From: Antedon mediterranea
Lineage: Eukaryota; Animalia; Echinodermata
Direction: 5' to 3'
Length of the DNA: 64,000 bases
Assembly (NCBI RefSeq): GCF_964355755.1
Contig: NC_092676.1
Coordinates: 19,858,871-19,922,870 of the forward strand
This document shows positions 31,590 to 43,355 of the stretch, piece by piece. The first letter of the stretch is position 1. Every line of letters starts with the position of its first letter. The translations under genes were made by a program, and so were the position numbers. The notes beneath the pieces were generated by a model. The model was not told where the DNA came from. It searched no databases and was given only the letters and a program-made list of their open reading frames with translations.

Positions 31590-31720
31590 GCGATTACGTC
31601 ATCACAAACTCGCTCGATCCGTGACGTGATCGATCATCAATACACGTAACGCTTCAATGAACAACCACGTGCATATCCTACGTGTACGTACGACGTGTGG
31701 TGGTGACGTGACGTGTCTCC
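31590..31720 (+). promoter_or_regulatory. Choline kinase proximal promoter with clustered ACGT-core motifs (CRE/UPRE-like, E-box, HRE-like)
   Basis: Nine ACGT cores in about 120 bp (TTACGTCA, TGACGTGA, CACGTA, CCACGTG, TACGTG, TACGTA and three further GACGTG), 150-280 bp upstream of the first ATG in otherwise CpG-poor DNA. Confidence 0.65.
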
Positions 31721-31867
31721 TCAAAAAGATCACAAACAAACTACTCACGCTTCACACATCGAATCAAACCACCACACACAGAGGATTGTGTTGTTTTTTT
31801 GTATTATAATTTTGTGTATTTATCAAAGTACTGCTGTGTGTTAATCGTTTGTTAATAATATTAACGA

Positions 31868-34800
31868 ATGTTTCTAGCAAGTAAACTAACAAATTACACT
31901 TTTTTGCGATCTGTACGTCTCACGGCCAACAACGTTCTAAGAAATCCCATTCTTTCTTTATATCACAACATGGAGGTTGAGCCCGAGTTCAGAGTGAAGG
32001 CTTTTAACTTGTGTCGTGAATACATCGGAGGAACGTGGTCCAGGCAGAGTGTTAACGATTTCAAGATAATTCCTTTACGGTAAGATAAATGGTGGTATCA
32101 TCAAATACGTTATATTCACTCTGGCTACTTTGTTTAGGATCAATATAAAGAATACTACTACAGTACGCCACGGTCACCCGTGCGTGCTACTACTACTAGG
32201 CCTAGGCTACTAGAGGCCTACTACTAGGCTAGCCCTAATATATTAATTCGGCTTAGTCAGGTTGCCGGAGACGTTTCGTCCCAGTTTTTAGGCTGACCAA
32301 ACTTAATAATTCTTAATATTTTGTTTGGTATTGAACAAGTTTGTTTTAAAGGATAAATGTTTTTCAATGTATATAATACATTTTTAAATTTAAAACACCT
32401 CAGACAGTAAATAGTATTGATTATTAATTAGTAAAAGAATATTAATAATAATATACATGAGAAGGCCTTTCATTGTGAAAAGGTTAACAAAATATATGTA
32501 CTTTCATCATTGCAGCCCAAGTCATCTAACCTAATTCTACATTTCTACATTGGTGTGTGCAGTGAATCGATCTCAATCATTTCTAATCAGTCAATCACAT
32601 GAAGCGAAAGGTTACACACATCAATCATCTATTATTAACCTTTTACATTCTCATTTCAGATTACGCTAATCATCTCGTCTTCATTTCTGCAGATTTTGGG
32701 AGTTCCTTGGACTTAAAAAAAGTAAAATTTGTATTACCCAATGAACCATAAACCAGTTCTCGCATTGTTTTCTTCTTTTTTTCAGTGGTGGTATTAGCAA
32801 CGAAATGTATCTTTGTTATCTTCCAGTTGAGAAATCACCAGGTAGCTTCCACTTAACATCAACAGTGAATCAAGATGGAGGAATCCCACAGTTTAAGGTT
32901 GTCTATGTTCCACAGGAATCATTTCAAGATGTATTCTATGTCATGTTGAATGTTTTTTCTTATGTCTTCATTTGGCTCTGCGAATCTGCGCTCATCCATG
33001 CGGTGTGATAGCATCTACTATTATAGGCAGCGCACCAGTGTTTTTGTATTGTTTTTTTTATAGAAGGAATGATGTTGAAATTTAGCTCGCTGATTCGGTG
33101 TACGGTAATTAGTGTACGGTAATTAGTGTGCTAATCACTGCTTTATATTAAAGCTGCGGATGGCTCCATTTTTTCTCAAGATCGTTATCTGTTAAACTGT
33201 ACAGTATGCTATGGATTACGACATATGGCAACATTTATACGTCATCCTTTCTTTCTGACTGGCTTATTTTTTTTTTTCAACTTTCAGTTGCATATAAATT
33301 TATACTCTAGTATTCATTTATAATTAAGGTACTTTTTTTTCAATATTAATATTCAACGTGCATTGTATGATGACCTAAATATTTATTAAGTTGCAACTTA
33401 GTTTTGGCTTTTTTCTGATTGATTGCCTAACAGTTATTTTTTTAACAAAATTTAATTATTTCTCTAATGAAAAAAGGTTCCTGGATGTGAATTTATTTTC
33501 AGACCCGTACAATTGTACTTTATTACAGTAATCTTTAGTGGAAGCAAGATTTTTTTTTTAAATGAACAGAATATTGCCAGGCATGGGATTTCCTCTTAAC
33601 TTGATTTCTTAAGAATTCATTAAATCGCCTTTAGATCCCATGGCATATAAAAGGTACTCAGGGATTTTTGTTTAACCAAATAAGTTTATAATTTTCTCAT
33701 ATGAGAAGCAGAGATCACTATAAGCAGAGTTTTGAATTAGTAATATTTTTACAGAGAGGAGTAAAAAGGTCATATATTCACTATACACTTTAATAAGAAG
33801 CTTGTTTTATTGGCCAATCATTTTTCCTGAACTGTTTTGTTTTTTCTGCAGAATTTTTACTTCACAGACATTAACTTCCTCGTAATTTTTTCCATATTAA
33901 TAAATGGTATTTTTTCTTCATAATTCCTGCTTCTTTATAGTTTTTTTAAAATGATATTTATTTGTGGAAGAAAAAAATTACCATTTTTATTTTTGGTTTC
34001 TAGTTGTCCAATGACCTTGAAGATCGTAGTGGCGTAGCAGATGAGATACAGTAGTAGTACTCATCATGATACGATACAGTACTCCCAGTAGTGCTCATCT
34101 CGTCTCCGGTTTATTAAATAAGAAATGAATCTCCTTCTTCCCCCCTTCCCCCTTTAAATTGCACATATATATTATATAAGTTTATAATAAATAATACTGT
34201 GTATATTAACTGTAACATTCACTCCAAATTTAACTTTGAACTGTTTTTCATCATTTGTAACCTCTGATCCTATTCATTTTTATATCAATCTAAACACTAC
34301 AAATCTTATCTGTGTGTGTATTTAAATTGTAACACCTAGAACAGAAAATTGAAATTATTTATACCATGGAGAAATATTTCTCCATGTTTATACTAAACAA
34401 TTCTGCAAACAAAATGATTTGTAAAATGTAATCAAGTGTAAACAGATTTATTTATTACTTTATTATTTATAATTTATTAATAAATGTTATTTTTAGATAA
34501 AGTGTTATATACTCTTCTTCAAAGTTTGAAGGGTTTGTTATCAATTTGTATGAAACATATAATTTATTTTATTAAAGTACTTTAAAAGCATCATAAATTT
34601 ATTGAACCAAATTTTTTTTTTTTTGGTAACATGAAAATAAGTTGTTTGTGAAAGTCACCTTCAAGGGACAAAGCTGTGTTTGACCTTCACATGACCTTGA
34701 TTACTAGTTATAGTTTTGACTTTGACCAAAATAATATCACATGATTAGCATTGTTCTGTCAAGTGTATTTTGTGTTTGTAACTTTCCTGCCAACCAATAA

Positions 34801-37800
34801 TTGCTAACATGTTCATTCTATGTCTCAACACCCTAGCTTGCTCAATTTGTATTTTTAAATCTAGTTTTGACAGAGGTTAGTTAGGGAGTCTGATGTTGAG
34901 AGTTTACTATACAAAAGTCTAAACTCTATTCCTTGTATGAATGGTAGGGAAACAAATACAGTACACATTACACATCATCACCATGTTACTGCTGAATATC
35001 TACCATTAAAAATGTTCTACACAGCTTTGTGTGGTTGTGTTTCAGAACTGGTCTTAGTAATTACATTTATCTCTGTTCTCTGCCGCATAAACAGAAACTG
35101 CCTAAAGATGAGCCACGACAGGTGCTACTACGTATTTTCGGCACTATAATTCGAGAAGATGGTGATGCCTCCCTCACCGATAGTATCATTTTTTCGTTGC
35201 TGTCCGAAAGGAAGCAAGCACCAAAGTTGTATGGGGTTTTTCAAGAAGGAAGGCTAGAGGAATACATTCCAGTGAGTAAAGTTCTGTTTACACGATCAAA
35301 CTTTATGTGTGTGCCCATAGATGGACATGATGATGTCATATCACAACTATATTTGGATTTGCATTTCACTTTTTCTTTTAATAGTCAAGAGCATTGCACA
35401 CATACGAACTAAGTAATCCTGAAATATCAAAAGAAATTGCCAGAAAGTTAGCAGAATTTCACCAATTAAATTTTTCTTTTAATAGTCAAGAGCATTGCGC
35501 ACAGATGAACTAAGTAATCCTGAAATATCAAAAGAAATTGCCAGAAAGTTAGCAGAATTTCACCAATTAAATCTACCATTGAGAAAAACTGCTAGTAAGC
35601 TCAATGAACAGATAGATAGGTATGTTTAATATTTAAATTATCATATTATTAATATTAACTACTTGATATTTGTATAACATGTACTGTTACTTACAGCACC
35701 ACTTACTGCGCTGCATTGAAAAATATAAATATCCAGTGTAATGCATCCCTGTGATTGGCTACTACATTTCTGTTTCACTTTACTATATAACCATCTTTTT
35801 CTTGATTTGTGTTAATTTTAATTTGTATTATAAAAACTAAATTTAGAATGCATATAAATGTATATATAAAAATTTGGGTAACATAATTTTTTCAATCTTC
35901 TATCGACTAAAGTCAAAGTATAGTCGTTATCTCGGGACCGATCTATGGCCACCACCAGGTAGGCTTACTTCATTAAGGCTTCTATGAATGGATGTACTGG
36001 TTGAGAGCAGGAACGCTAGTAGACCAAACCCAGTACCGTTTTGATTACAATCAATCGGGAAATTACCTCACGATGTATTAGGAAAATTTTTCATTCATTT
36101 TCAGGTGGATGAAACAGTATACAGGGTTTATGGCCAAGGCATCCGGAAAGAAACGTGACGAATTTGCAAGATTTGCATCATATAACTTGGAGAAAGAGGC
36201 AGAATATGTGAAGTAGGTATTATAAGATGACGACATTAGGTTAAGGATCTGACCGCCTCTGAGTTTTTAATTTTTCAATCAAAAATTGAATTTGGAATCT
36301 TTGGCTTGATATGCCAATGTCCTAAGCTCTGTCCACAATATCAAACTTTATGTGACAAAAAAATGTGATGTGCCCATATATGGACATGATGTCATATCAC
36401 TACCATATTTGGGCATATCACTACCATATACCACTACTCTTTTTATATATCCATTAAACTTTATATATAATTTAATAATAATCTATTAATGATACTTCTG
36501 TGCCTTCCATTCCTATCACCTATGATGATGGTCACAATTTTATCCTGTTAACATAGACTAGTACATTACTTTTATATATGATCAGTATGATAAATTTAAA
36601 TATACAAATTGTCTTCAAACTTTTACTTTTCATTTCTTTAAGGAAACTAGTAAATGCTTCTGAGAGTCCGGTTTTATTTTGTCACAATGATGCGCAGGAA
36701 GGCAATGTTTTGTATTGCGAAAATGATTCAAGTTTTTCACTAGTGTTAATTGATTATGAATATGCTGGCTACAGCTATAGGTAAGACAAATTTTAAGCTA
36801 TTATATTAAATATTTTTAAATAATTTTCACCTGGTTTAACACCAAAGAAAAATTCTCAAAATGTAAATATTTTATACATTGCACATCCTGATATGTAAGT
36901 TTGATAAACTGATTTTCCATTGACAGAATGATATACATATTACACTTTTTTTTTTACATTTACAGGGAACACGATTTCGGAAATCATTTTTGTGAATGGG
37001 CCATCAATAACAACACGGATGAATACCCGTACTACTCAATAGACATGAGCAAATATCCATCGGAAGAGCAGCAGTTGTTTTTCTTTAGAGCTTACATGAA
37101 AAGCGCCGGAATACCTTGCAGTAAAGAAGATGAAGAATTATTCCTTAGAGAATCTTTTAGGTAATTCACTATTTGTTTAATGCATTTGCAGTAAACTCAT
37201 AATTTGATCAATCGGACGTATCCTTATATGAGAAGACCAGAACTAATAGTGCTTTGAATATTTGCCAATAATTAGTAGCTGGCAAAATGTATTATAAAAT
37301 ATAAGGTCAACTATGAAACTACTGACCCATGACTGTGCTTTAACGGTTCCACATACGTAACCAGTGGCGTAATGCACGGGGCAAATGCCCTTGTTTTAGC
37401 ACTCCTAAGGAGCGCTCTGGGTCTACTCAACTTCCAGGGCTACTCAACCTTTGGGCATCTTGAACTCTGGGGCCTCTTGACCTCTGGGACCTCTGGGCCC
37501 TTGACCTCTGGGACCAGCCGTTACGCCACTGCACAGAACGTGCAAGTTCTATGTGTACATGTTTTTATTTTATTCACTGTCTATCTAGGTTTGCAATAGC
37601 AAGTCACTTTCGATGGTCTATCTGGTCAGTAGTTCAAGAAAATTTATCAAATACAGCATTTGGTTTCTTGGTAAGTATCTTTTTTCTTACATTTCACCAT
37701 TTACACATACTTTTTTAAAATTCTCTTCGCCCCAGTGAACCCCTATTATGGGAACACCTTTGGGACACTAGAAAGTGTCCCCTGAATAAAGATGTCCTCT

Positions 37801-38845
37801 GAATAAAGATGTCCTCTGAATAGGGGTGTCCCCTGAATAGGGGTGTCCCCTGAATAGGAGTGTCTCCTGAATAGGAGTGTCCCCAGGATAGAGATGTCCC
37901 CTGAATATGGGTATCCTGACTGTATTACTTGACTGACTGACTGACTTGCCTCGCTGCCAAATATCCAATACCTGCAACTAAATGCTAAAACAATTAAATG
38001 TTTAAGTGTCAATATTGTAACAAGATAAAGCTATGTCTACAAACTAGTTTGACAAAAAAAAAAGATGTGATGTAAGCTAAATGAATATGAATGTTTATTA
38101 TTATTTTTATAAATCTACTTTATCTAAATTGAATTTTTTCTTTAATATGTTGAGTAAACCGTAGACCCCTTACATTGGAACCACGTTAAATGATAGAATT
38201 TTACTGCTGCTATATAAGGAAATTAAACTTTATTTATTTATTCACACCCTTTATTACTACAAGACCAGCCATTTCTGTTAAAAACACAGATAACAACATC
38301 AAACAATGTAACCAGTATTTACAATCTTAAACCATCAATTAAATATCAACCAAATGAGCACAGTACTTCAAACTATATATGTTACACCACATACTGCAAT
38401 AGAGCACTGTGGCGCAGTGGTTAGAGCATTGGACTTGCAATCAAGAGGTTTCCGGTTCAAGCCCGGCCCGATCACTGCAGTGTTGAGTCCTTGAGCAAGA
38501 TTCTTTATCCACGTTGTTCCTCCCCACCCAGGTGATACAAATGGGTGCCGGTATGTAAAAAGTACTGGGAAGGTAAATCAGACTTGTTTGTGAGGGCGGA
38601 GTGGCGTACCCCCACAAACATACACACTTAGTGGAGTCTGGCCCAAACGCTAAGGAAATGGAGATGGGCACCGTTAGCATTTGCTTTGGGGTCGACCTTA
38701 CCTTTTTACTTTTTTACATACTACGCCAAGAAATTTTTATTATTGTTATTTTTGTTTTATTTAGGAATATGCAGAGGACCGTCTAAAAATATATTCAGAA
38801 TTAAAGAAACAAATTCCAGAAAGACTGAATTTTCCAGCTGAATAA
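31868..38845 (+). CDS. Choline/ethanolamine kinase (CHKA/CHKB family), complete, 8 coding exons
   Basis: Exons 31868 (or ATG 31970)-32079, 35046-35271, 35486-35619, 36105-36212, 36643-36780, 36966-37160, 37589-37670, 38765-38845 (TAA). Motifs: CREYIGGTW, RTGLSN ATP loop, EPRQVLLRIFG, PKLYGVFQEGRLEEYIPSR, Brenner motif FCHNDAQEGNVL, choline-kinase motif LIDYEYAGYSYREHDFGNHFCEW, and ASHFRWSIWSVVQ..FGFLEYAEDRL. Confidence 0.95.
32786..33008 (+). CDS. Alternative exon 2a of choline kinase (paralogous start, hydrophobic tail, in-frame TGA)
   Basis: Strong ttcttcttttttttcag-type acceptor in the same phase as exon 2b; reads GGISNEMYLCYLP versus TGLSNYIYLCSLP in exon 2b; open for 73 codons to TGA. 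Confidence 0.65.
35370..35571 (+). repeat. 101-bp tandem duplication spanning the choline kinase exon-3 acceptor
   Basis: tttttcttttaatagtcaagagcattgc...caccaattaaa occurs twice with about 3 substitutions. Confidence 0.95.
37733..37923. mobile_element. Tc1/mariner (pogo-like) MITE with internal 18-19-bp tandem repeats
   Basis: CAGT...ACTG|TA ends; repeated gtgtcccctgaatag; related fragments near 2808, 11870-12003, 14290-14342, 26880-26970, 27820-27975, 53955-54100 and 54491-54765. Confidence 0.65.
38403..38715 (+). mobile_element. tRNA-derived SINE (second family)
   Basis: A box TGGCGCAGTGG, B box GGTTCAAGCC, body gtccttgagcaag...ccacccaggtgatacaaatgggt, (ACCTTT)-type tail; related fragments near 17035-17220, 43700-43860 (reverse) and 59720-59870. 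Confidence 0.8.
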
Positions 38846-40121
38846 ATTGTCGAAATATTTGCAATATTGTATAATTATGAATACCTTCAACTCAAAATAG
38901 CTTTTTTGTTCTATGCATGGATTAACAAATTGTTAAGCTGATACAGCTCACAGATTTTAACCAAACTTTTAACAACAAAAAACCCTGAAATAATTGTATA
39001 AATGTAAGCATAGCTTAACGTGAATGTATTTACTGTGTGATTGATTGATTTAAAGCTCGCCCACTTTCCCTAAGCAAGCAGTATAAGTGTTATCATTTGT
39101 AATTAATGTGAAAAAAAAGTCATGTATTAAAAAATGACAATGTTTGGCAGTCACAATGTAATAACCCAGAGGGCAGCAGACTAAGCAACACAAAATGGTG
39201 ATAATTTAACGATGCAATGAAGGTGTTTACAAAAATAATAATGTTCACAATTGGAATTGGGATCAACTCCCTTCTTTTTTTTTCAATGAAACAGATATTT
39301 CTGTAATAGTTTTGTAGTTTTCACATGTCAATTGTTTGGAATATTTGACAATAATAAGATCAAACTTGCTAGGAACAGACATATTGGTGCATGGCCATGT
39401 ATGGCTTCATAGTAACATATGTTAAGTGGCATAATGCATGGGACACAGGCCCCTGGTTTAGCACTCCTAATGGGCCCACCAATACTGGGTAGTTGCATTG
39501 GGGCTGCTTATGCTTTGGGGCCCCTTAAGCTCTGGGCCCTTGGGTTTAGCCAGGGAGCGCTCATAGCCGTTATGCCATTGCATATGATCTGCAGAAGCTG
39601 TATAATAACGAGACATTCCATTGATTGCCAATGTCTATTCAAAATATAAATATATATAACAATACATAATTAAAGAAGTCCCCATTGAGTGGGGACTCAT
39701 ACTTGAGGGTGAACTCTGCTTGAATATGAATGAATATATAGTATATATCTATATACTCGCAAATGTATTCCTAATGCATAGCATAGTGTATAGTATAATC
39801 AGTAAGTAACATACACTGCATTGTATATGTATGTGTGTGTGTATACCACTCTTATAAGGTGGTGGTCTTGGGTATTTTATAAATGTTTAGTTAAGATAAG
39901 ATTTACTTTAGATTGTATTGTAGATTTCAACACATTCTTTTTAACAATTTGTTTTATGAATATACTATATGTATAGTATATTACTGCATTTGTGTGGTGC
40001 TGATTGGGGTAGTTAAATTGTGCTTTGAAATAAGTAATATGATTGTGCTAAACTACTCAACAGTATTCAAAGATTTAACTATTTACTTGTGTAAATATAT
40101 ATAACTTCAATAATAAAAAAA

Positions 40122-40380
40122 TTAATAATAATAATAAACAGTATTTATATAGCGCCTAATGGATCACTGACCCCTCTAGGTGCTTTACATTAGAACTTAA
40201 CTAATGGTAATAAACTATCCCCCGCCGGACACCATTCCGGTATTTCTTAGTCAAGGTTTCGGGGATGGAGACAATCAATAATGTGAAGAAAAAAATGTAA
40301 CTAAGCTTAACTATGTTTAACTAAGATAAAACTATCCCCCGCCGGACACCATCCCGGTATTTCTGAGTCAAGGTTTCTGA
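40122..40380 (-). mobile_element. L2/CR1-type LINE or SINE 3' tail fragment with local 50-bp duplication
   Basis: Reverse complement tgtaaagcacctagag...taggcgctatataaatac...(tat)n; aaactatcccccgccggacacc..gtcaaggtttc repeated at ~40212 and ~40329. Confidence 0.55.
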
Positions 40381-42431
40381 ACTGCATTATTCAGAATACG
40401 AGTGATGTAACTGAATCTTACCTTACCACTTATGATTATGTAAGTGTTACTACTTAAATAAATTAAGTAGAATATTATTACTATAGTACACATAAGATGT
40501 TGTTCTTTTGGTTTATGTTACTCATTTTTTTAAATATTTTTCGGAAACTTACATAAATTATGCATTTCATCATTTGTCCATTCTCTCATCCAGCTCCGTA
40601 AAATCAATTAAATCGTCCAAGGTTTCAAGTATTAAAGGACCACTTGGGACATCCCTAAACCAGGGCCTCAGGCCTCTTTGTTTAATATGCTACCGCCTCC
40701 TGTTGTCACTGCCATATATTTTTTTAAGAGAGTAAAAACACAGGGCTAGGTGTATCGTAACCCATCGTATATATTGGTGATGCTGTATAAATATGCTACT
40801 ATCTAGTAATTCCATATGGTGTGTTGGCTATTTGTAGGTTTAAAGTTCGCATTTGTTTTGTTGCAGTCAAACATTGTATTGTTAATATATAACTATGTAA
40901 TGCTCATTTATATTTGTAAAAATTATTGAATTTGAAAAGTTATAATTTCTTAAAAATTACATAAACAATCTGAAAATATAACTTGTGTTTTTACATGATT
41001 TGTTTTAATTGGAATTCATTAATTCTTATAAATAATTAAGTTTAGCATGCTGATTATTTTTAAATTTCTGAATATTATTATATTGGCCATGTTAGTACAG
41101 TCTTGATAATGCAAACCTGTTAATTGCTTGTAAACAATAGTACTATAGAATACAGTATTCTTATATATATCGTACATTTATTAATTGTTTGGTTTCTATT
41201 CATCGTTTTTTCTCACTAAATGGAGAATTTTAATTCACATATTTTTATCAAAGGTGGTCAATGTGAGCAAAACCTTTTTTTTGTGTATTATAGTTTAAAT
41301 TAAAACAATTTTCCTTGATTATATTTATTTTGTTTGCACAATTATCAACGGTGTTAATGAATTTTTCTTGAATATTTCAATCAAACTAGATTTATGATAT
41401 ATTTTCATTTTTCATATTTTCATTACATTTTTAAAAACCAGTTTTTATCGGTTTAAATACAGTGTACATATTTCTAGTGTAGTTACGTACAGTGTTTATA
41501 AACCTACAGTATAGTATATTTAGTATGCTTGTGCAGTAGATGTAGATATAATGTGTATTCAGTTCTATCTACACTATCGAACTAGTTCAACAACAAAAAA
41601 GTGTGATGTGCCTAAATATGGTAGTGATATGCCCAAATACGGTAGTGATATGCCCAAATATGGTAGTAATAATCCTGTCCATTATGTTGTCACATAATGT
41701 TTGATAGTGGAGACAGAGCTTTACATACGTACATTGAGATATGGTCTTTAGTACTTGCCTCTTGTTCACACAACACATTTATAAATCTTACAAAAGTATG
41801 TTATAATATGTTGTACAGTTGACGTTACAAAAGTGTATAGTAGTCAAACACAATAGTGGGTAGGGGGCTTAAATTGAACTACTTTAGTAGTTTTACCAAA
41901 TAAATAGTAATCATGTTTCACAATGCTTGTATGTATGTATGTTCAAAGTTACGTTACTGAATTTGTAAGGTACCGTAATGTGTTTTTTCCTTGTTTTTAC
42001 ATGGATAGCCTTACAGTATAAATGTACAGTATTACATTGATAGGAATTATGTAGTTAATGTGTATATTATGCCTATTGTATAAAAATACGTGATTCTATC
42101 CAAACTGTATAATATTGGAAAACATTTATACATATACGTTTAGGATACTGTATATATTTCGCTGAAAATGGTATCTACCGTACCTGTAGATTGATTTAGA
42201 TTTTTGATTTAGATTGATTTCATGGGGCCATTCAAGTGTAACAATTGATATGTGATAAAATGTTAATGTCATTTTAATTTTTACATTTATTCTCAAAAAA
42301 GTATTAAAGAAACATAATAAAGATTGTTTATAAGGTTTTTTGTATAATTTTGTAATCCGGGTTTTTTGCATAATTTTTATTCCGGGTTTGTTGCCTACTG
42401 TACTTAGTAAAGATAGAATACTGCATATCGT

Positions 42432-43110
42432 GTCTTCAATAAATCGTGGTCGTATCAGCGTTTCATCAACACATCGTGGTCGTATCAGCGTTTCGTCAAC
42501 AGATCGCAGTCGTATCAGTAACACATCGCGGTCGTATCAGCTGTGTTTCTTCAACACATCGCGGTCATATCAGCGTTTCGTCAACATATCGCGGTCGTAG
42601 CAGCGTTTCGTCAACACATCGCGGTTGTATCAGCGTTTCGTCAACACATCGCGATCGTATCAGCGTATCGTCAACACATCGCGGTCGTATCCGCGTTTCG
42701 TCAACACATCACGGTCGTATCAGCGTTTCGTCAACACATCGCGGTCATATCAGCGTTTCGTCAACATATCGCGGTCATATTAGCGTTCCGTCAACACATC
42801 GCGGTCATATCAGCGTTTCGTTAACACATCGCGGTCGTGTCAGCGTTTCGTCAACACATCGCGGTCGTATCAGCGTTTCGTCAACACATCGCGGTCGTAT
42901 CCGCGTTTCGTCAATACATCGTGGTCGTATCTGCGTTTCGTCAATACATCGCGGTCGTATCCGCGTTTCGTCAATCGCGGTCGTACCAGCGTTTCGTCAA
43001 CACATCGCGCTCGTGTCAGCGTTTCGTCAACACATCGCGGTCATATTAGCGTTTCGTCAACACATCGCGGTCATATCAGCGTTTCGTCAACATATCGTAG
43101 TCGTCAACAT
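42432..43110. repeat. 30-bp minisatellite (~22 units) CAGCGTTTCGTCAACACATCGCGGTCGTAT
   Basis: Direct head-to-tail repeats with no spacers; CpG-rich. Confidence 0.95.
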
Positions 43111-43167
43111 CCATGATGTTCTCAACACATGTCGCCAGAGTGTCGTCAACACCATATCGTTTGTTAA

Positions 43168-43355
43168 AGGCCAACTTAGACAGCGTCGTACGATGAGGTC
43201 CGACGAAACGTATTGGCGAGTCGGTGCTGTTTGAGTTAAATCCCGACGAGACGAGTCGTCTTGAGATAGCGTCGGGCGTGGTTTTTAGGTCGTCGCGAGA
43301 AGTTTTCTCCCGACGAGACGACTCGTCGGGCCTTGTCGTACGGACGAGTTGGCCT
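43168..43355. mobile_element. CpG-rich Harbinger-type MITE
   Basis: TAA|aggccaact...cgtcgtacga / tcgtacggacgagttggcct|TAA; internal cccgacgagacga repeats. Confidence 0.75.

What the first reader, a model, noticed from the sequence alone, without database searches (positions are those of the whole stretch)
32786..33008. Second, paralogous exon 2 in choline kinase that swaps the kinase body for a hydrophobic tail
Seen: intron 1 holds a strong acceptor in the correct phase. It is followed by GGISNEMYLCYLP, a clear homologue of the real exon-2 start TGLSNYIYLCSLP and closer to the canonical R-G-G-L-S-N ATP loop. Homology then stops, but the frame stays open for about 60 more codons, ending VFYVMLNVFSYVFIWLCESALIHAV-TGA (about 20 hydrophobic residues). 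Amino-acid similarity despite nucleotide divergence suggests an old exon under selection. Inference, model A: a terminal exon giving a ~110-aa (or ~145-aa) catalytically dead, tail-anchored isoform that keeps the N-terminal helix and ATP loop. Model B: a mutually exclusive exon, since GCG|gtgtga at 33002/33003 would give a 217-nt phase 2-0 exon versus 226 nt for exon 2b. Model C: a poison exon for NMD feedback on phosphatidylcholine synthesis.
Basis: partly seen in the sequence, partly recalled or inferred. Interest (0 to 1): 0.8.

Follow-up and report, generated by a model that had tools for sequence, protein, structure and literature searches.

The report
Swappable ATP loop in choline kinase
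A feather star's choline kinase gene holds a duplicated exon that is likely spliced into the middle of its sister exon, which would give a full-length enzyme with a different ATP-binding loop, a switch that gene models of sea stars and sea urchins also show and that may tune membrane-lipid synthesis.

Summary
The extra exon is real and old, but it probably does not make a tail-anchored stub. The gene is crinoid choline kinase: its 8 canonical exons give a protein identical to the Antedon mediterranea record (391 of 391). The crinoid Anneissia has an annotated isoform with the orthologous exon (20 of 37 residues identical), which ends at the Lys matching 32897 and resumes 16 codons inside exon 2b. 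In the window that is 32786-32897 joined to an internal acceptor at 35094/35095, predicted to give a full-length kinase with a swapped ATP loop and 21 extra residues. 10 of 14 echinoderm species seen have this model; 0 of 295 non-echinoderm proteins do. The hydrophobic tail looks like read-through into T-rich intron. Against: the donor is weak, Antedon's own annotation lacks the isoform, and the junction was not seen in RNA; only the canonical junction was. The orthologue evidence is automated annotation. Function is untested. It is a variant of tandem-exon substitution; my searches found no paper on it. Interest 0.5.

The parts
31868..32079 (+). Exon 1 coding part (upstream ATG 31868, second ATG 31970), ends in phase 2
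   Evidence: Identical to residues 1-71 of the Antedon record; RNA contig of X1 covers 31771-32078 and joins exon 2b
32756..32785 (+). Strong acceptor of exon 2a (17 of 20 pyrimidines)
32786..32897 (+). Exon 2a, predicted 112 nt, phase 2 to 0, 37 codons: alternative ATP loop, strand beta-2 and a linker
   Evidence: 20 of 37 residues identical to Anneissia isoform X1, both ending in Lys; end inferred from the orthologue, not seen in RNA
32839..32847 (+). Competing phase-1 donor CAG|GTAGCT inside exon 2a; would shift the frame with either downstream acceptor
   Evidence: 7 of 9 consensus matches; stops after 58 or 89 codons; use untested
32895..32903 (+). Predicted donor of exon 2a, AAG|GTTGTC, weak
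   Evidence: 4 of 9 consensus matches; position matches the end of the Anneissia exon
32898..33008 (+).
   Evidence: T 42% against 29% in the 112-nt exon and 41% in the intron after it; ATGT x6 reached by 0.03% of 70-nt windows
35046..35094 (+). 5' part of exon 2b (49 nt): canonical ATP loop, doubling as pyrimidine tract and AG of the internal acceptor
   Evidence: RNA joint 32079-35046; 14 of 20 pyrimidines before CAG at 35092-35094
35095..35271 (+). Shared 3' part of exon 2b (beta-3 onward), predicted re-entry point after exon 2a
   Evidence: X1 and X2 isoforms of 7 species rejoin at this codon; RNA joint 35271-35486
35385..35485 (+). Recent 101-bp tandem copy of the exon 3 start, skipped in the RNA run
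   Evidence: 98 of 101 identical; bridged in DNA run X4, skipped in X1
35486..38845 (+). Exons 3-8 (35486-35619, 36105-36212, 36643-36780, 36966-37160, 37589-37670, 38765-38845): catalytic lobe shared by both isoforms
   Evidence: All introns GT..AG; spliced product identical to the Antedon record; Pfam PF01633 above cut-off for 3 of 5 pieces scanned

Best explanation
Exon 2a is an old tandem copy of the start of exon 2 that likely ends at 32897 and is likely spliced to an acceptor hidden 49 nt inside exon 2b (35095), which would give a minor, full-length choline kinase with a different ATP-binding loop and 21 extra residues between strands beta-2 and beta-3. Only two routes keep the frame with these sites: exon 1 to whole 2b (357 aa from the second ATG; seen in RNA) and exon 1 to 2a to internal acceptor (378 aa; inferred). 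The crossed routes hit early stops (54 and 77 codons), so decay of those transcripts would make the two loops behave as mutually exclusive (inferred). The weak donor and the ATGT cluster behind it suggest regulated, low-level inclusion (inferred). In crinoids the new loop keeps the G-x-S/T-N motif, so the isoform is predicted to be active with altered kinetics; in sea stars and sea urchins the motif is lost, so it is predicted to be weakened and to damp activity within the obligate dimer (untested).
For: Anneissia RefSeq X1 carries the orthologous 36 codons, ends in Lys and resumes after the Gln of 2b; the window has AAG|GT and CAG| at those codons. The same swap is modelled in 10 of 14 echinoderm species seen: Anneissia, Patiria, Acanthaster, two Asterias, two Diadema, Strongylocentrotus, two Lytechinus (7 X1/X2 pairs resolved). 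Urchin models that join exon 1 straight to the internal site (P0124, P0128, P0258) support that acceptor independently. Exon lengths differ (36, 37, 40, 48 codons) yet all keep the frame. Base composition switches at 32898. AlphaFold places the Anneissia 2a loop and beta-2 in the normal N-lobe with residues 92-107 disordered (mean pLDDT 83.7; top match human choline kinase alpha, TM 0.89). 32 of 286 proteins held, moth, butterfly and fly sequences read by eye, carry long inserts at the same loop. The loop contacts ADP and phosphocholine, and the enzyme is inactive as a monomer (PMC2871500, PMC4364537, passages).
Against: The donor matches consensus at 4 of 9 positions, and a better-looking donor at 32842 shifts the frame. 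The Antedon mediterranea cluster has 1 member, the 2b form; Amphiura has no 2a model among 4 members. The one echinoderm kinase from Logan assemblies that I found (P0157) is the 2b form. All orthologue evidence is automated annotation seen as proteins, which favours in-frame forms; I saw neither their DNA nor their reads. Apostichopus uses 2a plus the whole of 2b, so the pairing is not universal. Crinoid 2a scores no higher against sea star, urchin and sea cucumber 2a (15-46) than against 2b (35-54), and a non-crinoid 2a profile finds window 2b (E 0.0003) but not 2a (E 2.3), so one origin for all classes is not shown. The folds used alignments dominated by 2b-type rows.
Confidence: 0.75

Rival explanations
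1. Exon 2a is mainly a poison exon: inclusion through the phase-1 donor at 32842, or through 32898 to the canonical 2b acceptor, gives an early stop and decay, lowering kinase output as mouse Chka alpha-3 does.
For: These routes stop after 58, 89 or 77 codons. The 32842 donor has 7 of 9 consensus matches, and the Anneissia residues at that spot (Ser-Gly-Asn) are compatible with a kept donor (inference from protein). Mouse Chka has a premature-stop exon that rises in fasted lipin-1-null liver (PMC8492312, passages). Frame-shifted models exist in urchins.
Against: Residue-level similarity to Anneissia continues past 32842 with an in-frame one-codon indel. Sea star and urchin 2a exons keep a recognisable beta-3 copy over 40-48 open codons, which a pure poison exon would not need.
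Confidence: 0.1
2. The exon is functional in other echinoderms but is decaying in Antedon and rarely spliced.
For: Weak donor; no 2a model in the Antedon record's cluster; 2a is 54% identical between the two crinoids against 80% for the whole protein (20 of 37, 287 of 359).
Against: Acceptor, frame and the terminal Lys-GT are intact. A similar level of divergence is seen between sea stars (26 of 48) and between urchins (19 of 40), where models exist.
Confidence: 0.07
3. One reading: 2a is a terminal exon giving a 110- or 144-residue, catalytically dead, tail-anchored isoform.
For: The frame is open to 33008 with a 19-residue stretch of mean hydropathy 1.79; chance of both features is about 1% per site by the window's own rates. 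RNA run X1 holds a contig at 32989-33217, depth 2.5. ATTAAA lies at 33147.
Against: The tail has intron-like composition and no similarity to any protein held (best local score 34). None of the orthologue models read ends this way. X1 holds other intronic contigs too (34689-35074, 37852-38352), so that contig fits pre-mRNA, and it runs 70 nt past the ATTAAA.
Confidence: 0.06
4. One reading: a 217-nt exon (donor 33003) replaces all of exon 2b and joins exon 3.
For: The join is in frame (354 aa) and the length is close to 226 nt.
Against: It would remove beta-3 with the Arg equivalent to human Arg-146, an ADP contact (PMC2871500), and the next helix; no orthologue model read joins 2a to exon 3; the donor has 4 of 9 consensus matches.
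Confidence: 0.02

Closest known systems
Tandem exon duplication-derived substitutions / mutually exclusive homologous exons (PMC8373072, passages read)
   Same: An adjacent duplicated exon replaces a homologous stretch of the protein, is old and is kept across species.
   Different: Only the first 49 nt of the sister exon are replaced, through an acceptor inside its coding sequence; the swap is unequal (+20 to +32 residues); sea cucumber includes both copies.
Vertebrate CHKA alpha-1/alpha-2 splicing (18-residue insert 155-172; PMC2871500)
   Same: Alternative splicing changes the N-lobe of an active, dimeric choline kinase by about 20 disordered residues.
   Different: The vertebrate insert lies after beta-3 and leaves the ATP loop unchanged; here the loop itself is exchanged and the insert lies before beta-3.
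Mouse Chka alpha-3 (premature-stop exon; PMC8492312)
   Same: An alternative exon in choline kinase that can lower activity; frame-shifting routes also exist here.
   Different: The conserved route here keeps the frame and all catalytic motifs. I could not test whether the alpha-3 exon is homologous.

Membership tests
Choline/ethanolamine kinase (PF01633) | Profile match above the curated cut-off | tested here: met
   3 of 5 pieces scanned score 49-54 bits against a cut-off of 29; exon 1 and the 73-aa 2a frame do not match on their own
Choline/ethanolamine kinase (PF01633) | Kinase fold and catalytic motifs kept in the 2a isoform | tested here: met
   X1 isoforms share the whole suffix with X2; Anneissia X1 model matches human choline kinase alpha, TM 0.89. 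Tested on the orthologue, not on the window's own predicted isoform.
Choline/ethanolamine kinase (PF01633) | Enzyme activity of the 2a isoform | not testable with these tools
   Needs an assay
Tandem exon duplication-derived substitution | Adjacent exons are homologous | tested here: met
   8 of 13 residues and 27 of 39 bases; urchin and sea star 2a also keep a beta-3 copy
Tandem exon duplication-derived substitution | One copy substitutes for the other in the protein | tested here: met
   7 of 8 X1/X2 pairs compared are substitutions; Apostichopus is an insertion. Annotation models only.
Classical mutually exclusive exons | Two whole exons, exactly one included | tested here: not met
   177 of the 226 nt of exon 2b are kept in both forms
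Tandem exon duplication-derived substitution | Both forms transcribed in this species | tested here: inconclusive
   Canonical joint seen in one contig-level run; contigs drop rare variants, so the 2a form stays open
Tail-anchored membrane protein | Single C-terminal transmembrane helix | tested here: inconclusive
   Best 19-mer hydropathy 1.79, reached by 70 of 756 ORF ends in the window; no transmembrane predictor was run
Tail-anchored membrane protein | Tail conserved in orthologues | tested here: inconclusive
   Absent from all orthologue protein models read; orthologous intron DNA could not be fetched
Poison exon (alpha-3-like) | Inclusion brings a premature stop | tested here: inconclusive
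   Not for 32897-35095; yes for three other pairings; usage unknown
Poison exon (alpha-3-like) | Transcript rises when NMD is blocked | not testable with these tools
   Needs an experiment

The most novel reading that the evidence does not exclude
Echinoderms have kept, since before crinoids split from the other classes, a splice switch that swaps the ATP-binding loop of choline kinase: a duplicated exon plugs into an acceptor written inside the coding sequence of the loop it replaces, making a full-length but retuned or near-dead subunit that sets phosphatidylcholine synthesis through mixed dimers in particular tissues or stages.
Probability: 0.3. Interest if true: 0.7.

Novelty: new variant of a known kind. 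Interest (0 to 1): 0.5.

Why it matters
Choline kinase starts phosphatidylcholine synthesis and is a drug target; the known splice variants add a disordered insert or truncate the enzyme. A natural, phylum-wide exchange of the nucleotide-binding loop would be a new way of tuning it, and gives ready-made loop variants (motif kept in crinoids, lost in sea stars and urchins) to test in sea urchin embryos. It is also a clear case of a coding exon that doubles as a 3' splice site, and of how a duplicated exon can survive as a partial swap. The isoform already sits unremarked in RefSeq for several species, which limits the novelty.

Tried and rejected
No whole genome is held for the window, and a metagenome scan returned 80 loci, none above 43% identity, so none looked echinoderm; orthologous intron DNA, dN/dS and donor conservation could not be tested. 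No RNA holder was listed on record; X1 behaves as spliced RNA by two GT..AG joints that DNA run X4 lacks. X1 has no contig over 32786-32897; contigs drop rare variants, so this is no evidence either way. The 73-aa frame found nothing among proteins of 129-2000 residues (8 candidates; a 110-aa isoform lies outside that range) and 4 hits among 1.84 billion representatives, of which I read 1, an unrelated repeat protein; its Pfam DUF5707 hit (E 0.029) is below cut-off. A search for CHKB intron positions gave none for introns 1-2, so the vertebrate exon-2 boundary is inferred from lamprey isoforms only. The Esrp paper's 6 text supplements hold no choline kinase term (PMC5703972). Rfam gave only a tRNA-like match. 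Three look-ups of earlier scan findings were empty. One search used downstream exon coordinates that were off by one; the lengths reported come from the corrected. One search stopped on a script error after 20 rows; the species tally rests. No tree and no complex prediction were run: 13-16 alignable residues carry too little signal, and a dimer would pass by likeness to solved structures.

Full report
Observation. DNA contigs of one sample span 31700-34060 nearly unchanged.

The gene. Exon 2b is identical to a record named choline/ethanolamine kinase-like of Antedon mediterranea. Eight exons with GT..AG introns give 391 of 391 residues of that record, so this is a crinoid of the genus Antedon. 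Run X1 shows the joints 32079-35046 (depth 8) and 35271-35486 (depth 19.5), which DNA run X4 does not.

What exon 2a joins. The cluster of the Anneissia japonica orthologue holds a second isoform, X1, 20 residues longer. It replaces the first 16 codons of exon 2b by 36 codons that match the window's 2a frame (20 of 37 identical; score 103, 0 of 10,000 shuffles), ends in Lys, and goes on after the Gln of 2b. The window has AAG|GT at 32897/32898 and CAG| at 35094/35095, the matching codons, with 14 of 20 pyrimidines before that AG. The join is in frame and gives 378 residues from the second ATG, 21 more than the canonical form. This junction is inferred from the orthologue; I did not see it in RNA.

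How widespread. Of 14 echinoderm species among the proteins fetched, 10 have a model with a 2a-type exon entering 2b at this codon (Anneissia; Patiria, Acanthaster, Asterias rubens, A. amurensis; Diadema antillarum, D. setosum, Strongylocentrotus, Lytechinus variegatus, L. pictus; the two Lytechinus models are partial or fused upstream). Apostichopus has 2a plus all of 2b, Holothuria has an unclear 24-residue insert before 2b, and Antedon mediterranea and Amphiura have no such model. Three urchin models join exon 1 directly to the internal site, out of frame, which supports that acceptor on its own (my reading of P0124, P0128, P0258). Of 295 non-echinoderm proteins that the script could parse (vertebrates and arthropods mostly, with a few hemichordates, amphioxus and a tunicate), none has a doubled motif; one bird model lacks the loop motif for another reason. 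These are automated models seen as proteins; that such isoforms usually rest on RNA-seq is recalled, not checked. Whether the crinoid exon and those of the other classes share one origin is not shown by sequence; shared position, phase and re-entry codon favour it. That the classes split some 450-500 million years ago is recalled.

The tail. Base composition changes at 32898: T rises from 29% to 42%, as in the intron beyond. An open run of this length and this hydropathy each occur at about 7-11% and 9% in the window, about 1% together, so chance is adequate but not overwhelming. The stretch holds six ATGT copies in 70 nt, a density reached by 0.03% of windows; UG-rich elements behind weak donors as splicing enhancers are recalled knowledge, and that reading is untested. 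One low-depth X1 contig covers 32989-33217, but X1 has other intronic contigs as well.

How it likely works. With these sites only exon 1 to whole 2b and exon 1 to 2a to the internal acceptor keep the frame; the crossed joins stop after 54 and 77 codons. A 105-nt form of 2a joined to whole 2b, as in sea cucumber, would also be in frame. The swapped stretch is the ATP-binding loop (human 117-124), which contacts ADP and, through Ser121, phosphocholine; the enzyme works only as a dimer (PMC2871500, passages and section 16; PMC4364537, passages). 238 of 254 kinase sequences held carry G-[LIVM]-[ST]-N there; 10 of the 16 exceptions are sea star and urchin 2a models, while crinoid and sea cucumber 2a keep the motif (the sequences are not independent). 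AlphaFold keeps the fold for Anneissia X1 (insert 92-107 disordered) and for Strongylocentrotus X1 (64-85 disordered, beta-3 taken from 2b), with alignments dominated by 2b-type rows. So the isoform is predicted to fold and to differ in nucleotide handling, mildly in crinoids and more in sea stars and urchins. Activity is untested.

Origin (inference). Lamprey isoforms place a phase-0 boundary 36 codons after the loop start, the length of Anneissia 2a. Exon 2a may therefore be a copy of a short ancestral exon 2 whose sister later lost its downstream intron, with the internal acceptor recruited as the new partner. A partial duplication explains the data equally well.

Comparison and novelty. 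It works like a tandem-exon-duplication substitution (PMC8373072, passages) but fails the test for classical mutually exclusive exons, since most of 2b is shared. It differs from human alpha-1/alpha-2 and from mouse alpha-3 (PMC8492312, passages; its figure was not visible). Two searches pairing choline kinase with echinoderm or sea urchin terms gave 5 papers, unrelated by their listings, and 0 papers; the library lacks most subscription journals, and bioRxiv supplements are closed, so this is no proof of absence.

Verdict. Observation confirmed, interpretation partly supported; a new variant of a known kind; interest 0.5, confidence 0.75 in the splice pattern and lower in the function.

Noticed in passing
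window 31868-31969: An upstream in-frame ATG adds 34 residues that are basic and acid-free (4 R/K, 0 D/E in the first 30; 0 of 327 body 30-mers are like this). Similar starts occur in Anneissia, Diadema, Holothuria, Styela X1 and Ixodes X1, less cleanly in Patiria and amphioxus X1, and not in the two vertebrates or the nemertean checked. It resembles a mitochondrial presequence (recalled pattern, no predictor run); the X1 contig starts at 31771, upstream of it.
   Followed up: partly
window 35385-35485: 101-bp tandem copy of the exon 3 acceptor and first 29 codons, 98 of 101 identical, present in DNA run X4 and skipped in RNA run X1: a very young exon duplication in the same gene.
   Followed up: yes
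window 34689-35074: X1 holds an unspliced contig running into exon 2b at depth 5, against 8 for the spliced joint: retained intron end, slow use of the canonical acceptor, or an internal start.
   Followed up: no
window 38409-38468: tRNA-like Rfam match just above cut-off (29.6 bits) in intron 7, in a many-copy repeat: likely a SINE head.
   Followed up: no
window 38846-41500: X1 contigs continue well past the stop codon at depths 17-42, which fits a 3' UTR of 2.5 kb or more.
   Followed up: no
window 33098-33125: A 14-nt tandem repeat; contigs of X1 and X3 over this region show a 14-letter gap, which fits a one-copy allele.
   Followed up: no
window 42126-43354: Long ORFs in several frames made of a short tandem repeat, probably a minisatellite.
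   Followed up: no
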